Source: Promethearchaeota archaeon
GTDB taxonomy: Archaea > Asgardarchaeota > Lokiarchaeia > Sigyniarchaeales > SOKP01
Assembly: GCA_016839555.1 (NCBI GenBank)
Contig: JAEOUA010000006.1
Coordinates: forward strand, 1 to 64,000
Length of the DNA: 64,000 nucleotides
Direction of reading: 5' to 3'
Below are positions 34,670 through 42,026 of the stretch, one piece after another. The notes beneath the pieces were generated by a model that was given only the letters and a program-made list of their open reading frames with translations, did not search any database and was not told the origin of the DNA. The position numbers and the translations under genes were made by a program. Numbering within the stretch: the first letter of the stretch is position 1; each line of letters starts with the position of its first letter.

Positions 34670-37168
34670 TTAATTAATTAGATATTGGGCTGTTTTGGAA
34701 TTCGAATTGCTTTTAACTTCGGTAAGACTGCCAGTAGCGATCACTTTTCCTCCTTTAGGTCCTCCCTCAGGTCCTAATTCAATGAGATAATCACAATAAG
34801 AAAGAATCTCGGGGTCGTGTTCAATGATAATGACGCTGTTTCCCTCTTGAACTAGTCTTTGCAATAAATCCATTAATTTAACGGCATCATAAAAGGATAA
34901 TCCCACCGTGGGTTCATCTAAAATATAGAGGGAATGACCGCTTTTACTCTTCCCTAATTCTTTAGCTAGCTTAATTCTTTGTGCTTCCCCCCCACTCAAA
35001 GTAGGAGATGGTTGTCCTAGGGTGATATATCCTAACCCGATACCATCTAAGACTTTCAGCATCCTCATAATACCATTATTAGATTTAAAATATTCTAATG
35101 CTTCTGTGATTGTCATATTTAATACATCAGCGATGGACTTTCCATGGTGTTTTATTTCTAAGATTTCTGATTGGTATCGTGTTCCTTTGCATTTTCGACA
35201 AGGAATGGTATAACCGCTGAGAAAAGATATTTGTAAATCCTGCACTCCTTGCCCTTTACAAGCGGGGCATCTTCCCGAGCTTGAGTTATAAGAAAAATGT
35301 CCTGCTGTATAGCCGCGTTTTTTTGATTGTTCAAGATTAGCAAAAACTTTTCGAATTTTGCCCCATATTTTTGTATAGGAACATGGAGTAGATGTTCTTA
35401 CTCGAGCGATGGGTTTTTGATTAACTACTACAAAATTATCAAGATTTTCATAACCTTCAATAGTTCCCGAATAGTCTGATAACCATTCTTCATCATCTTC
35501 TTCATTATTTGATTTCATAGCTCTTCTTTTTTTAATTCCTCTCCTAAAATGAGGTTTTAATAAAGGAACCAGAGTATCTAATATGAGGGAGCTTTTTCCA
35601 GATCCGGACACTCCCGCAAATCCAATCATCATTCCTAAAGGGATTTTAACATTTAGATTTTTAAGATTATGGGTGTTTACATTTTTTAGGGTAAGAAACT
35701 TAGTATTCTCAGAAATAGTCTTTTGTTGCTCTGTGAGCTTTTTAGGTAATTTTATTTTACCCGCTAAAAATTGACCTGTATAGGAGATTTCTTTTTGTTT
35801 AATTCCATCAATATTCCCTTGATATACAATCTCTCCCCCATAGATCCCAGGTCCAGGGCCAAGGTCAATTATTTCATCTGCGATCTCCATGAATCGTTTG
35901 TCATGCTCTACAATGATTACGGAATTTCCCAAGTCTTTTAATTTTATTAATGTATCGATTAATGCTTCTTTTTCACTTTCATGTAAACTCATACTCGGTT
36001 CATCCAATATGTAAACCAATGAGTCTAATCCAGCATCCAAATGGGTCATAAGTGTTAATCTTTGGAGCTCCCCACCACTTAATGTGGGCATAGGGCGGTT
36101 TATATGTAAATAAGAGAGTCCAACTTTTCTCAACGCTTCTAACCCTTCTAATATTTCATTAAGTATTGATTTTCCTTGGGGGCTTTTGATAAAAGTATCA
36201 TTAAACTCATGTAAAGTTTTAATTAAATCTTCAATAGTCATCATCGCTAATTCTCCGATATGCTTTCCTCCAATCTTTACCTCTCGGGCTTGTTCATTGA
36301 TTCGAAATCCTTCGCATTTCTCACATAAACGGGATGACATATAATTTTTTAATATTTTCTTCCTTCGATATTCACTGGTACTTTCAGACATAGCCCTTTC
36401 CAAATGTGGAATTATTCCTTCAAATTCTCTTTCTAATTCTCCTGTAAAGCTTTTTGAATTCCATTGAAAAGATAATTTTTTTCCGCTTCCGTAAAGAAAC
36501 ACTTCCTTCACTTTTTCTGGCAGATCTTTATAGGGAGTGTCAATATCAAATTCATAGAAGCTTGGAAGTTGCTCCACAAATCGAATTTGGTCAGCAAAAC
36601 AACCAGATCCCGCTTCAGTAATTTCTATTAAATTTCTATTATAATCTTGAACTATAAGATCCTCCGTAAAATGTGTGGTATGTCCCCGTCCTTTACATTC
36701 TAAGCACATTCCAGAGGGTTCATTGAAAGAAAAATGTTTTATTTGGAGACGATCCACCTTCATGCCACACTGCTCGCATTCTAATGTTATTTGATTCACG
36801 GGTTCTTTGCAAATCGGGCATACTAATATACCTTCAGCAGCATATAACATTCTTAACATATTATATAGCCTCGTCCTGGTTCCCACTGTAGAACGAGGAT
36901 TCGATATTTTAGTAGTGCGTTGCTCTATTGCCACCGTTGGACTTAAACCATCTATCCGATCAAAAGGTTTTTCTCCTTCAAATTTGGGGGGAAATCCGAT
37001 TGATTGTAAATAGCGATTCATTCCTTCATCAAATATAATATCAAATGCCAAGCTTGATTTTCCACTTCCACTTACTCCTGTAATTACAATTATTTTACCT
37101 TTTGGAATTTCTACGCTGACGTCTTTTAAATTATGAAGTCTTGCTCCAACAACTTTTATTTTATCCAT
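34670..37168 (-). CDS. uvrA: UvrA-family ABC ATPase lacking the UvrB-binding insert (class II/UvrA2-like)
   Basis: GARLHNLK, two GVSGSGKSSL Walker A motifs, LSGGE signatures, ILDEP, zinc fingers. Only ~10 aa separate CPIC and CEQC; 832 aa. Confidence 0.88.
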   Translation of the reverse strand: MDKIKVVGARLHNLKDVSVEIPKGKIIVITGVSGSGKSSLAFDIIFDEGMNRYLQSIGFPPKFEGEKPFDRIDGLSPTVAIEQRTTKISNPRSTVGTRTRLYNMLRMLYAAEGILVCPICKEPVNQITLECEQCGMKVDRLQIKHFSFNEPSGMCLECKGRGHTTHFTEDLIVQDYNRNLIEITEAGSGCFADQIRFVEQLPSFYEFDIDTPYKDLPEKVKEVFLYGSGKKLSFQWNSKSFTGELEREFEGIIPHLERAMSESTSEYRRKKILKNYMSSRLCEKCEGFRINEQAREVKIGGKHIGELAMMTIEDLIKTLHEFNDTFIKSPQGKSILNEILEGLEALRKVGLSYLHINRPMPTLSGGELQRLTLMTHLDAGLDSLVYILDEPSMSLHESEKEALIDTLIKLKDLGNSVIIVEHDKRFMEIADEIIDLGPGPGIYGGEIVYQGNIDGIKQKEISYTGQFLAGKIKLPKKLTEQQKTISENTKFLTLKNVNTHNLKNLNVKIPLGMMIGFAGVSGSGKSSLILDTLVPLLKPHFRRGIKKRRAMKSNNEEDDEEWLSDYSGTIEGYENLDNFVVVNQKPIARVRTSTPCSYTKIWGKIRKVFANLEQSKKRGYTAGHFSYNSSSGRCPACKGQGVQDLQISFLSGYTIPCRKCKGTRYQSEILEIKHHGKSIADVLNMTITEALEYFKSNNGIMRMLKVLDGIGLGYITLGQPSPTLSGGEAQRIKLAKELGKSKSGHSLYILDEPTVGLSFYDAVKLMDLLQRLVQEGNSVIIIEHDPEILSYCDYLIELGPEGGPKGGKVIATGSLTEVKSNSNSKTAQYLIN

Positions 37169-37215
37169 TTCTTAATCCTTTTAATTATTTCTTTTTTTAA
37201 AAATATTTTATAATT

Positions 37216-37884
37216 TTAACTTTTTTGTAATATGTAAAAGGCAGTATTAAAGTTTTTTGGATTAGATTTAACCATATTAATTTCTTTTTTATATCTGCTT
37301 ATTTCCTTTCTCAAATTTTTATTTAAATTCATTTGACTTAATTCTTTAATCCTAAGTTCCAATGGATTGTAGAATTCATTCCACCATGCGTTATCTGGTA
37401 ACTGAAACCAATCATATAATATAAAGCCAAAGGATGATAAATGATTGATATAATCTTGAATCCCCTTAATTGTTTCATGTAAAACTAAAAACCCTCCTTT
37501 TTTGAGGATTTTATGACACGCTTTAAAACCTCTTTTAAAGCCTATTATATGAATAACTCCTTCCGCCCAAATAATATCGAAAGTTAGCGGTTCAAATTTG
37601 TAGTTTAATAGAGAACCCTGAATTATTTTAATTCTATTTTCTAAACCATACTCAATAATCTTATTTTCTAATTTTCTAAGATCTTTAGAGTTAATATCCA
37701 TTGCATTAATATATCCATTGGTTAATTTTGCTAATTCAATAGTCGGAACACCTGTACCACATCCAATATCTAGAATTTGAGGGTTATATAGTTTTGGAAG
37801 CAAGTGAAATGCCTTTTGTGTATATTTAAGAAAAATTTCACGAAACTCATCTATATTCAGATTTGCTTTATTTTGATCTCTCAT
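37216..37884 (-). CDS. class I SAM-dependent methyltransferase
   Basis: ILDIGCGTG, FDIIWAEG, LKKGGFL. Confidence 0.9.
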   Translation of the reverse strand: MRDQNKANLNIDEFREIFLKYTQKAFHLLPKLYNPQILDIGCGTGVPTIELAKLTNGYINAMDINSKDLRKLENKIIEYGLENRIKIIQGSLLNYKFEPLTFDIIWAEGVIHIIGFKRGFKACHKILKKGGFLVLHETIKGIQDYINHLSSFGFILYDWFQLPDNAWWNEFYNPLELRIKELSQMNLNKNLRKEISRYKKEINMVKSNPKNFNTAFYILQKS

Positions 37885-37898
37885 TTCTCAACCTTTTT

Positions 37899-38345
37899 TT
37901 AATCCATTAATTCGGGATTATAGCTTTTATTACATTTAATACATTTATAATTATAGAATACAATAGGTCCTCCACAAGTATCGCATTTCCACTTATTTTT
38001 TTGAGCTTTAATCCATTGATCATATCCCACTATATTGATATTCTCAACATTATTTGGGATTTCATGTCTGTAGGTAAATTTAATATCATTTGGATGGGAA
38101 TCAAGTAATTTATTTGAAATTTTATCACAGGGAAATTCAGAACATTCACCGCAATATAATAATTTCTTTTCATTTCTACAACAAATTCTTATCTTACAAC
38201 TCCATTTTGAGGTTCTTTTTTGATTTTTATTTTCACTCCTACATCCTAAACATGTTCCTAAATGATAAGAAGGACATGCTCTGCAATATAATCCACAATA
38301 ACTTAATAAATCTAAATTTCTCCTTTCTATTTTACCCACCCACAT
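37899..38345 (-). CDS. DUF3795 Cys-rich protein
   Basis: YCGLYCRACP..CLGC..CKIRICC..CGECSEFPC..WKCDTCG..CIKC. Confidence 0.85.
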   Translation of the reverse strand: MWVGKIERRNLDLLSYCGLYCRACPSYHLGTCLGCRSENKNQKRTSKWSCKIRICCRNEKKLLYCGECSEFPCDKISNKLLDSHPNDIKFTYRHEIPNNVENINIVGYDQWIKAQKNKWKCDTCGGPIVFYNYKCIKCNKSYNPELMD

Positions 38346-38351
38346 TTTTAT

Positions 38352-39488
38352 TCATATTTTTATCTCTAACAAATTATGAAATAATTTTTCTTCCACAATA
38401 CAAATTTTGTTTATTTCTTTTGAAAGCTCGGAAAGATCAACCATTTTTAAACAATCATCTTTAAAATTCTCTGCAGCTTTTTTTAATGTATTCGCAAATT
38501 CCGTCCATTTTTGAGCAGAATCACTGATCATTGGGATACAATTTTCAATAATTTGTATCTCCTCTTTAGTCCATGATTTTGGGCCTTGCGTAAATGTTGG
38601 AGTCTTAATGATTTCTTCTAAGAACGACTTATATAAATTTCGAAATAAAGCACCTCCCGTACCCCATTCCTCAATATAACCATAAATCAATTCAAAATTA
38701 AGTCCCGCAAGTAAATATTCTTTATGATTATAAGGATTTTTAATAATTTTGTTGAAAGTCTCATTCCAAGTTAGAATTTTCTCAGCAAAATTCTTTAATC
38801 CTTGTAAACCATTGTTGCTCATCGAAGGTCGTAGCATATGATTTACTACCTTTTGAATTGCCAACTTTACTCCTGCTGAGAATGGAGGATGTTTTCCATC
38901 TAGGCGAGGTTGCATTGAATATTGGGCATTTTTTGGGTGTAAAAAGGAAGTTCCATACTCTGAGCTTCTTGCTTTTTTTAGATTTTCTAATGGTATTGCT
39001 TGAAAACCCTTAAAATCGCTGTCTCCTACATACGCAATTCCCTGGGTTTCATCAAATCCACCAAGTGTAATAAAATGTCCACCAAAATGAATATTTTCTT
39101 TCAGTTCCATATAATCTAAATATGCTAAATCGACTTGAAGCATTAATGGAATATCTTGGAGTATGAGTTTTTTTGCTTCTTCCCACGCTTTCTCCGAACT
39201 TGTGAATGATTGTTTGCGAAGAGTGATCCCTAAAAGACGGCATGCCAAGGAGTTGGGATTAATAGAGTCTTGTTTCCCTCCTACAAAAAGAGGAAGATCA
39301 GTAGTATCACCTCCTCTAAAATTTGAAATTCCATCAAAAAACCCAAAACCGAGGGTGCCATCCAGTCCAAATGCCATTGCTTCGGTCATTGGGAATCCAT
39401 AAAATTCAAACATATCTCTTAATGAGGAAGATTCACAATGCACTCCAACACTATGCTTAAAATCCTCTATAATATATTTATCTTTCAT
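38352..39488 (-). CDS. BtrH_N/DUF4872 NlpC/P60-like (papain-fold) protein
   Basis: GVHCESSSLRD..TEAMAFGL, VDLAYLDY, HFGGHFITLGGFD, LKKARSS, GTGGALFRNLY..FL. Confidence 0.82.
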   Translation of the reverse strand: MKDKYIIEDFKHSVGVHCESSSLRDMFEFYGFPMTEAMAFGLDGTLGFGFFDGISNFRGGDTTDLPLFVGGKQDSINPNSLACRLLGITLRKQSFTSSEKAWEEAKKLILQDIPLMLQVDLAYLDYMELKENIHFGGHFITLGGFDETQGIAYVGDSDFKGFQAIPLENLKKARSSEYGTSFLHPKNAQYSMQPRLDGKHPPFSAGVKLAIQKVVNHMLRPSMSNNGLQGLKNFAEKILTWNETFNKIIKNPYNHKEYLLAGLNFELIYGYIEEWGTGGALFRNLYKSFLEEIIKTPTFTQGPKSWTKEEIQIIENCIPMISDSAQKWTEFANTLKKAAENFKDDCLKMVDLSELSKEINKICIVEEKLFHNLLEIKI

Positions 39489-40093
39489 TTATATTCACTC
39501 ATATCTTCTTCTTTTTTTGAATAATCTTGTGGACCTATTTGTCCTTTTCCCTTTTTTACTTCTTCTAAAGCCCACCTTAAAAATTTTAAATCTGTTTTTA
39601 ATATTTCAATGGGATGAATGAATAATCCTGTTACATTTATCGGCATCTGAGAGTTTTCCTCAAGCATTTGTTCTAATTCCTTGATATGCGTTTTTATTTT
39701 TTGTATTGAATGAGAAATTGCCTCTATTTGCTGATCTTTGCTGAGGAGTGGAAGCATAGAAAACGCTACATAATAATTTTCATCATTTCTGCCGTAATAT
39801 TCTTTTAATACATTATATGTTTTGTTTTTTAAGATGTCAAGCCCATATGAAGTAATTCTATATACACGTCTTATTCTATTATCTACTTCTTCAGTATAGG
39901 ATTCCACCAATCCATCATCATCTAATAGGTTTAAATCACTATAGATCGAGGAAGTACCGATATTAGTCCAGTCTCTCATTCCTCGATCTTCAATCTTTTT
40001 ATCAAGGAGATACGCATGGCTGGGTTCTTCACAAATGAGGCCTAATACAATATATTGCCTATGTGTTAATTCGTAAGTCTTTTCGTTTGACAT
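39485..40093 (-). CDS. PadR-family transcriptional regulator
   Basis: VLGLICEEPSHAY, MRDWTNIGTSSIYSDL..L..GLV, RRVYRITSYG. Confidence 0.92.
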   Translation of the reverse strand: MSNEKTYELTHRQYIVLGLICEEPSHAYLLDKKIEDRGMRDWTNIGTSSIYSDLNLLDDDGLVESYTEEVDNRIRRVYRITSYGLDILKNKTYNVLKEYYGRNDENYYVAFSMLPLLSKDQQIEAISHSIQKIKTHIKELEQMLEENSQMPINVTGLFIHPIEILKTDLKFLRWALEEVKKGKGQIGPQDYSKKEEDMSEYK

Positions 40094-40559
40094 TGGAGGA
40101 AAAGGTGATTTGAATTGTTATTCAATATTATATTATTATAATATTATATATTAAGAATATTATTGAGCGAGAGTATTTAAAATTATGTATTTTTTAAATT
40201 TTATTTCTATGTGATTTATTAATAACTATTTTAAGTAAATCATTTGAACCTATTTTTTATAAAATAAGAGGATATTTCTCAATATTAATAAAAATAACAA
40301 TTAAAAGATTGTATAGAAGTATTGTAGACTTCTTAATCCTTTAATTATTTGAAATAATATAAATAAATCTAGCTATAAAGAAATTAGAGTTTCTAAATGC
40401 CAAATATAACTAGCTATTAGAGTAATATTGATATATAGAAAGCTTTAAATCTTATAAATTCTGATTTTAATTCATTCTTTATGAATACTAAAAAATATAA
40501 AGATGATTTGTTATTTAAATAAATAAAAATATCAAAAAAACATACTGAGTGTTAACTAA

Positions 40560-42026
40560 ATGGTAGATATAAAATTACAGATATGGGATCCTCCAGGAGA
40601 ACGATATATGTCGTTAAGCTCACTGTATAAAGGATCTCATGGGGTCTTACTTGTTTTTGATTTATCAAATAAAGAGAGCTTTTATGATGCGAAATTGCAA
40701 GAAATAATTGAATTTGTTAAAGAGAATACCTCAGGCCCCATAATACTTATAGCAAATAAAGTAGATTTAGTAAGTTTGGATCAATCTGAGATAAAAAAAG
40801 AGGACATAGCAGCATTTCGATCAAAATATGATATATTAGAGTTTATTATTACTTCTGCAAAAACTGGTGAAAATATTGACTTAGCCTTTCAAACATTAAC
40901 TGATTTAATGGTTAAAGAAAAATTGGAACAAGAAAGTTTAGGTAAAACATTAATTTTTAAAGTTGCTATAGCTGGTATAAATAGTGTCGGAAAAACCTCG
41001 ATAATACAACGCTATATTAATAAATCTTTCCAGAAGGAGTATAAAATGACTATTGGAGTACAATTCTACACTAAAGATGTTAAATATGAACCCGATCTTA
41101 TCTCCGATCTTAGAGGGGAAAAACAATTAGAATCTATTTCAAGAAGGATTGAAACTGAAGAAGAACCAGAGGAATTACTTGAGAAAGTAGATTTTGACAG
41201 AGAAAAAAAAATAGCATCTGCTGTTGAAGAACTGAAAAAGAGAGACGCTATTAAAAAAGCTAGGAAAGCTGAGGAGGATAGAATAAGTTTAGCTAAAGAT
41301 CGAGAGAAAGTTAAAGAACAACTCCAAAAACCTCTTGCAGGAATGCCGAAAATGGCTCCCGCAATGCCAGTACCAGAAGGTGTCGCTAAAAAAGTTGAAA
41401 GAAAGGCGACCGTATTTTATAAAGAGCGAATGAATCCAATGAAATTGAATAGGATGGCAGTAATAATTTCAACAAAAGAATTATATGAAGCTTTAAAAAT
41501 TGAGAGAGAAGAGATTATACGTGCGGCTACTGGTAAAACTTATGAAATTGAAAAGGAGATTCCCATATTATATGTAGAGCCAATAATCCCTGGATGTATC
41601 TGTGTTCCTTCCACAGGAAAGCTGGATGCTAGAAAAGAGTATGATCATGAGCTATTTTTAATTACTCCATTAGAGGCGGGAGAAATTCCTGATGCCAGAG
41701 TTGATATTTATTATAAAGAGAAATTAATCGACTCTATTCCAACTCCAATAGAGGTTGTAAAAACAACTATGGTAAAAATCAGTTCCGCGTTCGCCATAAT
41801 TTTCCCTATAATAGGAGTGTTATTTGATCAGTGGTTAGATACCGTCTTTAAAATCATTATTCCCTTTTATGAGGCAATAGGAGGATTAGAAGGATTTATT
41901 GCGATTTTAACGGGAGCGTTTGCGCTAATGACTGCGATATTTTATTACTTTAGGAAACCCAAAGATGCGAAGCCTGCGGAGTCGAAGTCTCTCCCTGAAG
42001 TAGTAAGTGCGGTCTCTAAGGAGTAA
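40560..42026 (+). CDS. circularly permuted Rab-like small GTPase with coiled-coil, beta-rich domain and two C-terminal TM helices
   Basis: Motif order: KLQIWDPPGE (G3, aa5-14), NKVD (G4, aa66), SAK (G5, aa99), GINSVGKTS (G1, aa139), TIGVQF (G2, aa164). TMs ISSAFAIIFPIIGVLF and FIAILTGAFALMTAIFYYF. Confidence 0.85.
   Translation: MVDIKLQIWDPPGERYMSLSSLYKGSHGVLLVFDLSNKESFYDAKLQEIIEFVKENTSGPIILIANKVDLVSLDQSEIKKEDIAAFRSKYDILEFIITSAKTGENIDLAFQTLTDLMVKEKLEQESLGKTLIFKVAIAGINSVGKTSIIQRYINKSFQKEYKMTIGVQFYTKDVKYEPDLISDLRGEKQLESISRRIETEEEPEELLEKVDFDREKKIASAVEELKKRDAIKKARKAEEDRISLAKDREKVKEQLQKPLAGMPKMAPAMPVPEGVAKKVERKATVFYKERMNPMKLNRMAVIISTKELYEALKIEREEIIRAATGKTYEIEKEIPILYVEPIIPGCICVPSTGKLDARKEYDHELFLITPLEAGEIPDARVDIYYKEKLIDSIPTPIEVVKTTMVKISSAFAIIFPIIGVLFDQWLDTVFKIIIPFYEAIGGLEGFIAILTGAFALMTAIFYYFRKPKDAKPAESKSLPEVVSAVSKE

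What the first reader, a model, noticed from the sequence alone, without database searches (positions are those of the whole stretch)
40560..42026. Membrane-anchored Rab-like GTPase circularly permuted in the order G3-G4-G5-G1-G2
Seen: the protein begins at strand beta3 (IKLQIWDPPGE), continues through LVFDLS, NKVD, SAK and helix alpha5, then after a short linker (KEKLEQESLGKT) supplies beta1/P-loop (FKVAIAGINSVGKTS) and switch I/beta2 (YKMTIGVQFYTK). Counterparts of all five RabF motifs occur once each (IGVQF, KLQIW, RYMSLS, LYKGS, LVFDLS), so one complete G-domain is encoded in permuted order. An in-frame TAA directly precedes the ATG, and I found no P-loop in the AT-rich upstream DNA. Established: characterised cpGTPases (YlqF/RbgA, YjeQ/RsgA, cpRAS) have the order G4-G5-G1-G2-G3. 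Inference: a break in the beta2-beta3 interswitch loop is structurally plausible, because the native Ras-fold termini are adjacent. It would couple switch I/beta2 directly to the following charged coiled-coil, a beta-rich domain and a C-terminal two-TM hairpin. This is loosely reminiscent of atlastin- or Miro-type anchoring without prenylation, and could be a nucleotide-driven tether. DTAGQ is replaced by DPPGE, so hydrolysis may be atypical.
Basis: partly seen in the sequence, partly recalled or inferred. Interest (0 to 1): 0.92.

Follow-up and report, generated by a model that had tools for sequence, protein, structure and literature searches.

The report
Permuted membrane-anchored Rab-like GTPase, Lokiarchaeal family
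This gene encodes a real, conserved Asgard-archaeal protein whose Rab-like GTP switch domain is wired in a rearranged order (it starts at strand 3 and ends at strand 2) and is tied to the membrane by a two-helix anchor. The rearranged order is not unprecedented, because eukaryotic cpRAS proteins have had it on record since 2008, but I found no description of it in archaea.

Summary
ORF 40560-42026 (488 aa) has one complete Ras/Rab-like G-domain in the order G3-G4-G5-G1-G2, cut in the beta2/beta3 turn. Next come a charged linker of about 100 aa, a beta-sandwich and a two-helix membrane hairpin.

It is not an assembly or truncation artefact:
- About 45 homologues from independent Lokiarchaeal/Promethearchaeota assemblies start at the same strand and keep the same order.
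- In-frame stops lie 3-39 nt upstream in four loci, and the upstream DNA holds no P-loop.
- A contig from a second sample spans the junction without a difference.

AlphaFold2 folds aa 1-188 as one domain (pLDDT 86, pTM 0.83). It superposes on Rabs over beta3-alpha5. It also aligns collinearly with the classical permuted GTPases YqeH and RbgA over beta4 to beta2.

The novelty claim fails. cpRAS (Elias and Novotny 2008) has exactly this order and this break point. This family is Rab-like (TIG, not TIE), archaeal, never joined to VWA, and confined to one Asgard order, so it is most likely an independent second invention. I found no paper describing it.

Best reading: a membrane-tethered nucleotide switch with intact GTP-binding motifs but an atypical G3 (DPPGE, no catalytic Gln). 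This scan logged the same stretch once more in an overlapping window.

The parts
40094..40559 (+). AT-rich (17% GC) intergenic region upstream, shared with the divergent PadR gene. A TTTAAATA string lies about 40 nt before the ATG and is a possible archaeal TATA box (inference only).
   Evidence: no ORF longer than 48 codons, no P-loop in any frame, and an in-frame TAA at -3.
40560..40931 (+). aa 1-124: beta3 (with G3 WDPPGE), alpha2, beta4, alpha3, beta5 (G4 NKVD), alpha4, beta6 (G5 SAK) and alpha5 of the G-domain.
   Evidence: Pfam Ras aa 3-117 matches profile 47-160. The AF2 secondary structure gives this order. It superposes on Rab32, Rab3A and Rab8a with Z 11.7-11.9 and rmsd 1.9-2.2 A over model residues 1-123 to 1-126.
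40932..40946 (+). aa 125-129: the short new loop joining alpha5 to beta1, that is, the native C- and N-termini of a Ras fold. In the wider sense the connector is KEKLEQESLGKTLI.
   Evidence: AF2 places alpha5 at 106-124 and beta1 at 130-139. This is a variable-length region in alignment A2.
40947..41087 (+). aa 130-176: beta1, the P-loop (G1 GINSVGKTS), alpha1, switch I (G2 T164) and beta2.
   Evidence: Roc PF08477 aa 134-175 matches profile 1-42. My own HMM matches aa 130-194 to positions 2-70. Model residues 14-176 align collinearly with YqeH and RbgA, Z 12-13.
41088..41390 (+). aa 177-277: charged, proline-ended linker. It is 48% K/R/D/E and its length varies from 46 to 353 aa in the family.
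   Evidence: There is no Pfam G-domain hit here and pLDDT is low from aa 177 on.
41391..41756 (+). aa 278-399: conserved beta-sandwich (ERKATVFYKERMNP ... PGCICVP ... ITPL).
   Evidence: AF2 of aa 268-488 gives pLDDT 86.4 and pTM 0.78. There are 46 invariant columns in A1. PDB matches are only generic Ig/PapD/MSP-like folds. No Pfam family matches.
41766..41954 (+). aa 403-465: two-helix membrane hairpin. The first hydrophobic helix is about 403-421, then an amphipathic stretch 423-433, then the second helix 442-465.
   Evidence: AF2 helices and Kyte-Doolittle windows above 1.6 starting at 402-407 and 432-446.
41955..42026 (+). aa 466-488 and the stop codon: conserved basic cytoplasmic tail (RKPKDAKPxESK). 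There is no Cys, so no prenylation site.
   Evidence: P467, D469, A470 and P472 are invariant in A1. The rest is read from the sequence.

Best explanation
The gene encodes a member of a Lokiarchaeal protein family: a membrane-tethered, Rab-like nucleotide switch whose G-domain is circularly permuted at the beta2/beta3 hairpin.

Shown here (in silico):
- One polypeptide supplies beta3 to alpha5, then a short new loop, then beta1/P-loop/alpha1/switch I/beta2. Together these fold into a single Ras-like domain.
- The residues that bind guanine nucleotide are conserved: the G1 Lys and Thr, the G2 Thr, G4 NKxD and G5 SAK.

Inferred:
- The protein binds GTP and GDP.
- Hydrolysis is atypical. In the window's subfamily G3 is DPPGE, with two prolines and Glu in place of the catalytic Gln. 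The sister subfamily keeps DLGGQERF.
- The chain leaves the G-domain at the tip of the interswitch hairpin. A flexible charged linker then leads to a cytoplasmic beta-sandwich and a two-helix membrane hairpin, so both termini are cytoplasmic. The G-domain is therefore held at the inner face of the membrane without a lipid anchor. It would recruit or release still unknown effectors according to the bound nucleotide.

Origin (inferred): a single permutation event inside the large Asgard Rab-like GTPase radiation. The likely route is fusion of tandem GTPase genes followed by loss of the outer pieces. This would be independent of eukaryotic cpRAS.
For: - Permuted order: Pfam and my own HMM.
- Family conservation: 18 full-length relatives plus a sister clade, all starting at beta3.
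- No N-terminal extension is possible: upstream stops and AT-rich DNA in four independent loci.
- Assembly: a contig from a second sample covers 40464-41726 with 0 differences.
- Fold: AF2 gives pLDDT 86.3 and pTM 0.83, with the element order b3-a2-b4-a3-b5-a4-b6-a5-b1-a1-b2.
- Superposition: VIA-align gives Rabs Z 11.9 and rmsd about 2 A over aa 1-123. YqeH 3ec1 gives Z 13.0 over 142 residues and RbgA 6g0z gives Z 12.1 over 144 residues, both over aa 14-176.
- Conserved binding residues: G139, G144, K67, D69 and S99 are invariant; K145, T146, T164 and A100 are at least 90% conserved.
- Membrane module: AF2 and hydropathy. The same C-terminal module follows every permuted G-domain found.
- One origin: a tree constrained to keep all 29 permuted domains together has a log-likelihood 41 units higher than the free quick-search tree, AU p 0.81.
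- Rab-like, not Ras-like: 69 of the 112 canonical G-domains taken from the nearest hits have a TIG-type G2 and none has TIED; the other 43 are unclassified.
- Raw material: tandem canonical GTPase gene pairs exist in relatives (L019).
Against: - There is no biochemical or expression evidence of any kind.
- Some subfamily members lack the G3 Gly (DPPA, DPPV, DPTI, DPES). P0070 and P0080 lack the P-loop Lys. P0018, P0056 and the L015 ORF have a degenerate G-domain. So part of the family may not cycle nucleotide at all.
- No GEF, GAP or effector gene is conserved next to it. Synteny holds only in the closest relative.
- The structure is a prediction, and I could not obtain coordinates for a true permutation-aware superposition.
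- The canonical sister group is unresolved; the backbone of the tree is a polytomy.
- No cpRAS sequences could be fetched, so independence from cpRAS rests on motifs, architecture and distribution only.
Confidence: 0.72

Rival explanations
1. Pseudo-GTPase scaffold. The permuted domain still binds nucleotide, or nothing, but no longer cycles. It would serve as a constitutive interaction platform on the membrane module.
For: The window protein lacks the catalytic Gln and has a rigid Pro-Pro in switch II (DPPGE). Close relatives have lost the G3 Gly. P0070 and P0080 have lost the P-loop Lys. P0018, P0056 and the L015 ORF keep the C-terminal module intact while the G-domain decays.
Against: In the window protein and most relatives G1, G2, G4 and G5 are strictly kept, which is hard to explain without nucleotide binding. 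The sister clade has a fully canonical DLGGQERF. From memory, and not checked here: Ras Q61E hydrolyses GTP, so Glu at this position need not abolish catalysis.
Confidence: 0.15
2. Domain-swapped oligomer. The beta1-alpha1-beta2 piece of one chain completes the beta3-alpha5 piece of a neighbouring chain, so the G-domain forms only in dimers or chains on the membrane.
For: A cut interswitch hairpin and a short alpha5-beta1 connector of about 5-12 aa could in principle favour swapping. The proteins are concentrated on a membrane. Nothing tested here supports it directly.
Against: AF2 builds a confident intramolecular domain, pTM 0.83. In a Ras fold the native termini are adjacent, so a short connector is enough (stated in PMC2430557 for cpRAS).
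Confidence: 0.06
3. Artefact. The ORF is a truncated or mis-assembled tandem of two normal G-domains, or a gene with a mis-called start.
For: Tandem small-GTPase genes and tandem-domain proteins do exist, and they align collinearly with the query (P0019, P0073 and others; L019).
Against: Dozens of independent assemblies give the same N-terminus and the same order. Stops lie 3-39 nt upstream in four loci and there is no upstream P-loop. A second sample's contig spans the junction with no difference. There is no G3, G4 or G5 after G2.
Confidence: 0.01
4. Homologue of eukaryotic cpRAS. The permutation happened once, and CPRas, which may go back to LECA, descends from an Asgard permuted GTPase or was transferred from one.
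For: The motif order and the break point are identical (PMC2430557). CPRas is considered potentially present in LECA (PMC13393502). Asgard archaea are the closest archaeal relatives of eukaryotes.
Against: cpRAS is a RAS-family domain with a TIE G2 motif and is joined to VWA or macroglobulin-like regions. This family has TIG and Rab-like motifs. Its nearest canonical relatives are Asgard Rab-like proteins. It is always joined to the beta-sandwich/2-TM module. It occurs in only 12 of 400 genomes, all of one order. Searches in the length range of cpRAS-VWA proteins retrieved none, which is weak evidence.
Confidence: 0.04

Closest known systems
cpRAS / CPRas proteins of eukaryotes (Elias and Novotny 2008, Biol Direct 3:21, PMC2430557)
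   Same: Same motif order, G3-G4-G5-G1-G2. Same break between strands beta2 and beta3. Helix 5 is joined directly to strand 1. Both are Ras-superfamily small-GTPase domains embedded in a larger protein.
   Different: cpRAS is a RAS-family domain (TIE G2 motif) and eukaryote-specific. It has a short N-terminal extension and is joined to a VWA/Sec23-trunk domain or inserted in a macroglobulin-like protein. This family is Rab-like (TIG, KLQIWD) and archaeal, starts exactly at beta3, and is joined to a beta-sandwich plus 2-TM hairpin. A common origin was not supported but could not be tested with sequences.
YlqF/RbgA, YqeH, YjeQ/RsgA (YRG/YawG circularly permuted GTPases)
   Same: A circularly permuted P-loop GTPase fold. 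The model aligns collinearly with YqeH 3ec1 (Z 13.0, 142 residues) and RbgA 6g0z (Z 12.1, 144 residues) from beta4 through G4, G5, G1 and G2.
   Different: Their order is G4-G5-G1-G2-G3, with the cut between strand 3 and helix 2, so G3 is C-terminal. They are TRAFAC ribosome-assembly factors with RNA-binding domains, not Ras-superfamily proteins. Sequence matches to their NCBIfam models are far below the cut-offs.
Asgard Rab-like small GTPases (for example Thorarchaeota Rab, PDB 7ezd; Promethearchaeota 'GTP-binding proteins' with a C-terminal zinc ribbon)
   Same: These are the nearest sequence relatives of each half (30-43% identity). The G2 and G3 flavour is the same (YKxTIG, KLQIWD). There are 50 canonical paralogues in the same genome.
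   Different: They have the canonical G1-G5 order. They have no beta-sandwich/2-TM module.
Membrane-anchored GTPases without lipid anchors (Miro, atlastin)
   Same: Only the general idea: a G-domain held on a membrane by transmembrane helices.
   Different: There is no sequence or domain relationship. Atlastin is a dynamin-like GTPase and Miro has two canonical G-domains with EF hands. This was not tested beyond the absence of these proteins from all hit lists.

Membership tests
Ras superfamily small GTPase (Pfam PF00071/PF08477) | All five G motifs (G1 GxxxxGK[ST], G2 Thr, G3 DxxG, G4 NKxD, G5 SAK) within one Ras-like alpha/beta domain. | tested here: met
   Pfam Ras E 3.1e-29 in two stretches. 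The motifs are at aa 139, 164, 10, 66 and 99. The AF2 model is a single domain, pTM 0.83. Rab superposition gives Z 11.9.
Ras superfamily small GTPase (Pfam PF00071/PF08477) | Canonical linear order G1-G2-G3-G4-G5. | tested here: not met
   aa 3-124 match HMM positions 52-172 and aa 130-194 match positions 2-70.
Rab family (eukaryotic sense) | RabF motifs. | tested here: inconclusive
   RabF-like strings are present but divergent: IGVQF, KLQIW, RYMSLS, LYKGS, LVFDLS.
Rab family (eukaryotic sense) | C-terminal Cys prenylation motif. | tested here: not met
   The protein ends ...VVSAVSKE, and there is no Cys in the last 130 residues.
Rab family (eukaryotic sense) | Placement inside the eukaryotic Rab clade. 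| tested here: inconclusive
   The backbone of the tree is unresolved.
cpRAS (Elias and Novotny 2008) | Order G3-G4-G5-G1-G2, with the break between strands 2 and 3. | tested here: met
   compared with the description in PMC2430557.
cpRAS (Elias and Novotny 2008) | RAS-family affinity, for example the TIE G2 motif. | tested here: not met
   G2 is TIG (KMTIGVQF). Of the 112 canonical G-domains taken from the nearest hits, 69 have TIG and none has TIED.
cpRAS (Elias and Novotny 2008) | Association with a VWA/Sec23-trunk domain or a macroglobulin-like (COG2373) region. | tested here: not met
   No such Pfam hit. Every permuted relative carries the beta-sandwich/2-TM module instead.
cpRAS (Elias and Novotny 2008) | Phylogenetic monophyly with the cpRAS domains. 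| not testable with these tools
YRG / YlqF-YawG circularly permuted GTPases | Order G4-G5-G1-G2-G3, with G3 after G2. | tested here: not met
   G3 (WDPPGE) is at aa 9-14, before G4. No DxxG follows G2, only the charged linker. The NCBIfam YlqF score is 22 bits against a cut-off of 208.

The most novel reading that the evidence does not exclude
A second, independent evolutionary invention of the beta2/beta3-split (G3-G4-G5-G1-G2) Ras fold. It would be the first in prokaryotes, and it sits in Asgard archaea. There it would be the dedicated switch head of a lipid-anchor-free, transmembrane-tethered Rab-like GTPase that works on the archaeal membrane. A still bolder version is that eukaryotic CPRas descends from it.
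Probability: 0.55. Interest if true: 0.65.

Novelty: new variant of a known kind. Interest (0 to 1): 0.55.

Why it matters
Anand and colleagues (cited in PMC2430557) argued that a cut in the beta2/beta3 turn should stop a GTPase from folding. cpRAS was the only counter-example, and it has no solved structure and no assay.

A compact archaeal family with the same topology shows that this cut has been tolerated at least twice. It also offers a small soluble prokaryotic domain (aa 1-185) that should be much easier to express, assay and crystallise than the 840-3900 aa eukaryotic CPRas proteins.

For Asgard cell biology, it is a small GTPase with a built-in transmembrane anchor. This bears on an open question: how the many Asgard Ras-superfamily proteins, which lack prenylation sites, meet membranes.

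The C-terminal beta-sandwich/2-TM module is itself an unnamed unit. It recurs in bacteria behind MshEN, FHA and ubiquitin-like domains. By fold match it also recurs behind TIR, protein-kinase and EAD11 domains.

Tried and rejected
- Homodimer or domain-swap test (complex prediction, two copies of aa 1-188 with alignment A2): no verdict, score 0.00. This is not evidence either way.
- RNA evidence: no RNA holder was listed among the public runs.
- Contigs of runs X3, X4 and X5 cover the gene only in pieces. Only X2 bridges the start, and it comes from the same study as the probable source sample.
- Looking for cpRAS sequences or long fused forms: the 'longer' search with aa 1-185 and a search with the canonical-motif relative P0053 returned only canonical or tandem eukaryotic Rab-like proteins. 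P0198, a Filamoeba Rab-VWA protein, has the canonical order.
- Suspected intermediates in the window's own genome (C12:8656-10182, C10:309481-310485, C10:403744-404514) turned out to be canonical G-domains followed by low-complexity tails.
- PADLOC found no defence-system family for this protein or for bacterial proteins sharing the C-terminal module. Scanning the 42 C-terminal modules one by one against Pfam gave only scattered chance hits. The NCBIfam hits of the full-length proteins were to their N-terminal domains only (small_GTP, PilB/MshEN-like, OdhI/FHA-like).
- Foldseek and VIA-align of the beta-sandwich against PDB gave only generic Ig/PapD/MSP/ZU5-like matches, TM 0.3-0.4.
- Conserved gene neighbourhood: none beyond the closest relative.
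- Free tree searches did not recover the permuted domains as one clade and did not resolve a canonical sister. Only the constrained-tree test was informative.
- Literature searches for an Asgard permuted GTPase found nothing. The library holds open-access papers only.
- An EAD11 literature search was uninformative.
Full report
**1. What is in the sequence**

The ORF is at 40560-42026 on the + strand. It is 488 aa long (P0001), starts with ATG, and has a TAA directly in frame before the ATG. It stands alone between two genes on the other strand:
- a PadR-headed operon, 466 nt upstream;
- a ferredoxin-nitroreductase gene, 255 nt downstream.

The upstream spacer is 17% GC. Its longest stop-free stretch is 48 codons, and no frame holds a P-loop.

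**2. The permutation is real**

Pfam Ras (PF00071) matches at E 3.1e-29 in two stretches. aa 3-117 correspond to profile positions 47-160. The Roc model places aa 134-175 on its positions 1-42. An HMM I built from 112 canonical G-domains gives the same picture: aa 3-124 match positions 52-172 and aa 130-194 match positions 2-70. The other 50 Ras-superfamily ORFs of the same genome are all canonical.

The motifs read directly from the sequence are:

| Motif | Sequence | Position |
|---|---|---|
| G3 | WDPPGE | 9-14 |
| G4 | NKVD | 66-69 |
| G5 | SAK | 99-101 |
| G1 | GINSVGKTS | 139-147 |
| G2 | T164 in KMTIGVQF | 164 |

**3. It is not an artefact**

- A word-indexed search and an exhaustive HMMER search found a family of full-length relatives from independent metagenomes and MAGs. 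Where named, they are Lokiarchaeota or Promethearchaeota. All begin MV(D/N)IKLQIWDPPG or M.D..L.IWDLGGQERF, that is, at strand beta3. All have G4, G5 and then G1.
- In three further loci the nearest in-frame stop lies 21-39 nt before the start, and the upstream DNA is AT-rich and non-coding.
- A contig from a second sample of the same study covers 40464-41726 without a single difference.
- Nothing after G2 resembles a second half-domain. aa 177-277 are 48% charged. This region varies from 46 to 353 aa between relatives and is modelled with low confidence.

**4. Fold**

I ran AlphaFold2 on aa 1-188 with the 29-row family alignment. It gives mean pLDDT 86.3 and pTM 0.83. The element order is beta3-alpha2-beta4-alpha3-beta5-alpha4-beta6-alpha5-beta1-alpha1-beta2.

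Sequential aligners can follow only one connectivity at a time, and the two kinds of hit complement each other:
- Rab32, Rab3A, Rab8a, Rab11 and Sec4 align to model residues 1 to about 123, with Z 11.4-11.9 and rmsd 1.9-2.2 A.
- The classical permuted GTPases YqeH (3ec1: Z 13.0, 142 residues) and RbgA (6g0z: Z 12.1, 144 residues) align collinearly to residues 14-176. That span runs through G4, G5, G1 and G2.

Together these hits cover the whole domain. They show that the P-loop piece sits where it sits in real GTPases. I could not obtain coordinates for a formal CE-CP run.

**5. The rest of the protein**

I modelled aa 268-488 with 42 homologous modules. The result has pLDDT 86.4 and pTM 0.78: a beta-sandwich (about aa 278-399), then two hydrophobic helices (about 403-433 and 442-465), then a conserved basic tail RKPKDAKPxESK.
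- Lys and Arg flank the hairpin on both sides. Because the G-domain must be cytoplasmic, both termini are inferred to be cytoplasmic.
- The module has no Pfam family and only generic Ig/PapD/MSP-like structural neighbours.
- By sequence it recurs behind MshEN, FHA and ubiquitin-like domains. By predicted fold it also recurs behind TIR, protein-kinase, EAD11 and YukD domains in bacteria.
- Every permuted G-domain I found carries this module, including the short 410-443 aa forms (hhalign probability 99.2%).

**6. Conservation and likely chemistry**

Across the 29 permuted domains:
- G139, G144, K67, D69 and S99 are invariant.
- K145, T146, T164 and A100 are at least 90% conserved.

Guanine-nucleotide binding is therefore the parsimonious expectation.

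G3 splits the family. One clade keeps a textbook DLGGQERF. The window's clade has DPPG(E/D/K), and some members have lost the Gly (DPPA, DPPV, DPTI, DPES). A few proteins have lost the P-loop Lys or the whole P-loop while keeping the C-terminal module. So hydrolysis in the window protein is probably slow, assisted by a GAP, or assisted by the Glu. Parts of the family may be pseudo-GTPases.

**7. Distribution and origin**

The window lies in a 3.74-Mb, 12-contig genome (92% complete) with 51 Ras-superfamily ORFs, only one of them permuted.

Among 400 genomes of the phylum, 12 have a match, counting the window's own. [quoted passage not shown] Two matched through the C-terminal module only, so their G-domain was not verified. 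One of these two, the L015 ORF, has the module behind a decayed G-domain. In the last two genomes the match is not a permuted protein but a pair of neighbouring canonical GTPase genes read through stop codons. All 12 belong to three families of one order, and occurrence is patchy even within the genus. Each genome had only three candidates scored, so some copies may have been missed.

I moved the beta1-beta2 piece back to the front in silico and built trees with canonical domains. The two main permuted clades are each well supported, but the backbone is a polytomy. A tree constrained to keep all 29 permuted domains together has a log-likelihood 41 units higher than the free quick-search tree (AU p 0.81). 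One origin is therefore the best reading.

Of the 112 canonical G-domains taken from the nearest hits, 69 have a TIG-type G2, none has the Ras TIED motif, and 43 are unclassified. The named ones among the nearest hits are Asgard.

Adjacent canonical GTPase genes occur in a related genus (L019). They also occur in this genome (C6:97013-98321). This is the arrangement that a duplication, fusion and truncation route to a permutation would need. That route is inference.

**8. Comparison with what is known**

That is wrong. Elias and Novotny (2008, PMC2430557) introduced cpRAS precisely as a G3-G4-G5-G1-G2 domain, with helix 5 followed by strand 1 and the missing bond between strands 2 and 3. They presented it against the claim of Anand and colleagues that such a cut should prevent folding. 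It is the only paper in the library that contains this motif-order string. CPRas is now considered a possible LECA gene (PMC13393502).

The present family shares the topology but fails the other cpRAS features:
- It is Rab-like (TIG), not Ras-like (TIE).
- It has no VWA or macroglobulin context.
- It is archaeal and narrowly distributed.

I could not fetch cpRAS sequences, so common descent is judged unlikely rather than excluded.

Two recent surveys of Asgard small GTPases do not contain the words 'permut' or 'transmembrane'. No paper combining Asgard, GTPase and circular permutation was found.

**9. Verdict**

The mechanism I favour is a membrane-tethered, permuted Rab-like nucleotide switch with atypical hydrolysis (confidence about 0.7).

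The topology itself has been known since 2008, so this is a new variant of a known kind, not a new kind. It is the first prokaryotic instance I could find, it is probably convergent, and it has a new anchor. It is a tractable object for the first structure and first assay of a beta2/beta3-split GTPase.

The same stretch was noted once more by this scan in an overlapping window. No look-alike on other DNA was on record.

Noticed in passing
window 41391-41954 (aa 278-465); alignment A3: The beta-sandwich + two-TM-hairpin + basic-tail module has no Pfam family. By sequence it recurs behind MshEN, FHA and ubiquitin-like domains (several such proteins look bacterial). By predicted fold it also recurs behind TIR, protein-kinase, EAD11 and YukD domains in bacteria. 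It is a widespread, unnamed membrane-anchor module of signalling or conflict-type proteins.
   Followed up: partly
L019 1324-1857 and 1879-2391 (G209, same family); own genome C6:97013-97543 and 97791-98321: Pairs of canonical small-GTPase genes lie head to tail, 21 nt apart in L019 and about 250 nt apart on C6. Read through the stop, the first gene's beta3-alpha5 followed by the second gene's beta1-beta2 aligns collinearly with the permuted domain at 40% identity. This is the substrate that a fusion-and-truncation route to permutation would need.
   Followed up: partly
whole genome G000 (12 contigs): There are 51 ORFs with Ras-superfamily G-domains in a 3.7-Mb genome. Several have long extensions (zinc ribbon, 300-570 aa forms). 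Only the window's gene is permuted.
   Followed up: partly
P0070, P0080; P0018, P0056; L015 250-2175: Some family members have lost the P-loop Lys (VGTTS, VGCTS) or the whole P-loop and NKxD, while the C-terminal module stays highly conserved. The G-domain has decayed repeatedly into a probable pseudo-GTPase.
   Followed up: no
window 34670-40093 (- strand); L001 1-4583: A PadR / BtrH_N-DUF4872 / DUF3795 / methyltransferase / UvrA-like ABC ATPase gene string lies divergent from the GTPase gene. The PadR-BtrH-DUF3795-methyltransferase part recurs next to the orthologue in GCA_008080765.1, with BtrH and DUF3795 duplicated. It is absent next to more distant orthologues, so it is probably unrelated to the GTPase.
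   Followed up: partly
window 40514-40521: A TTTAAATA string lies about 40 nt upstream of the ATG, inside the 17% GC spacer. It may be the archaeal TATA box of this monocistronic gene. This was not tested.
   Followed up: no
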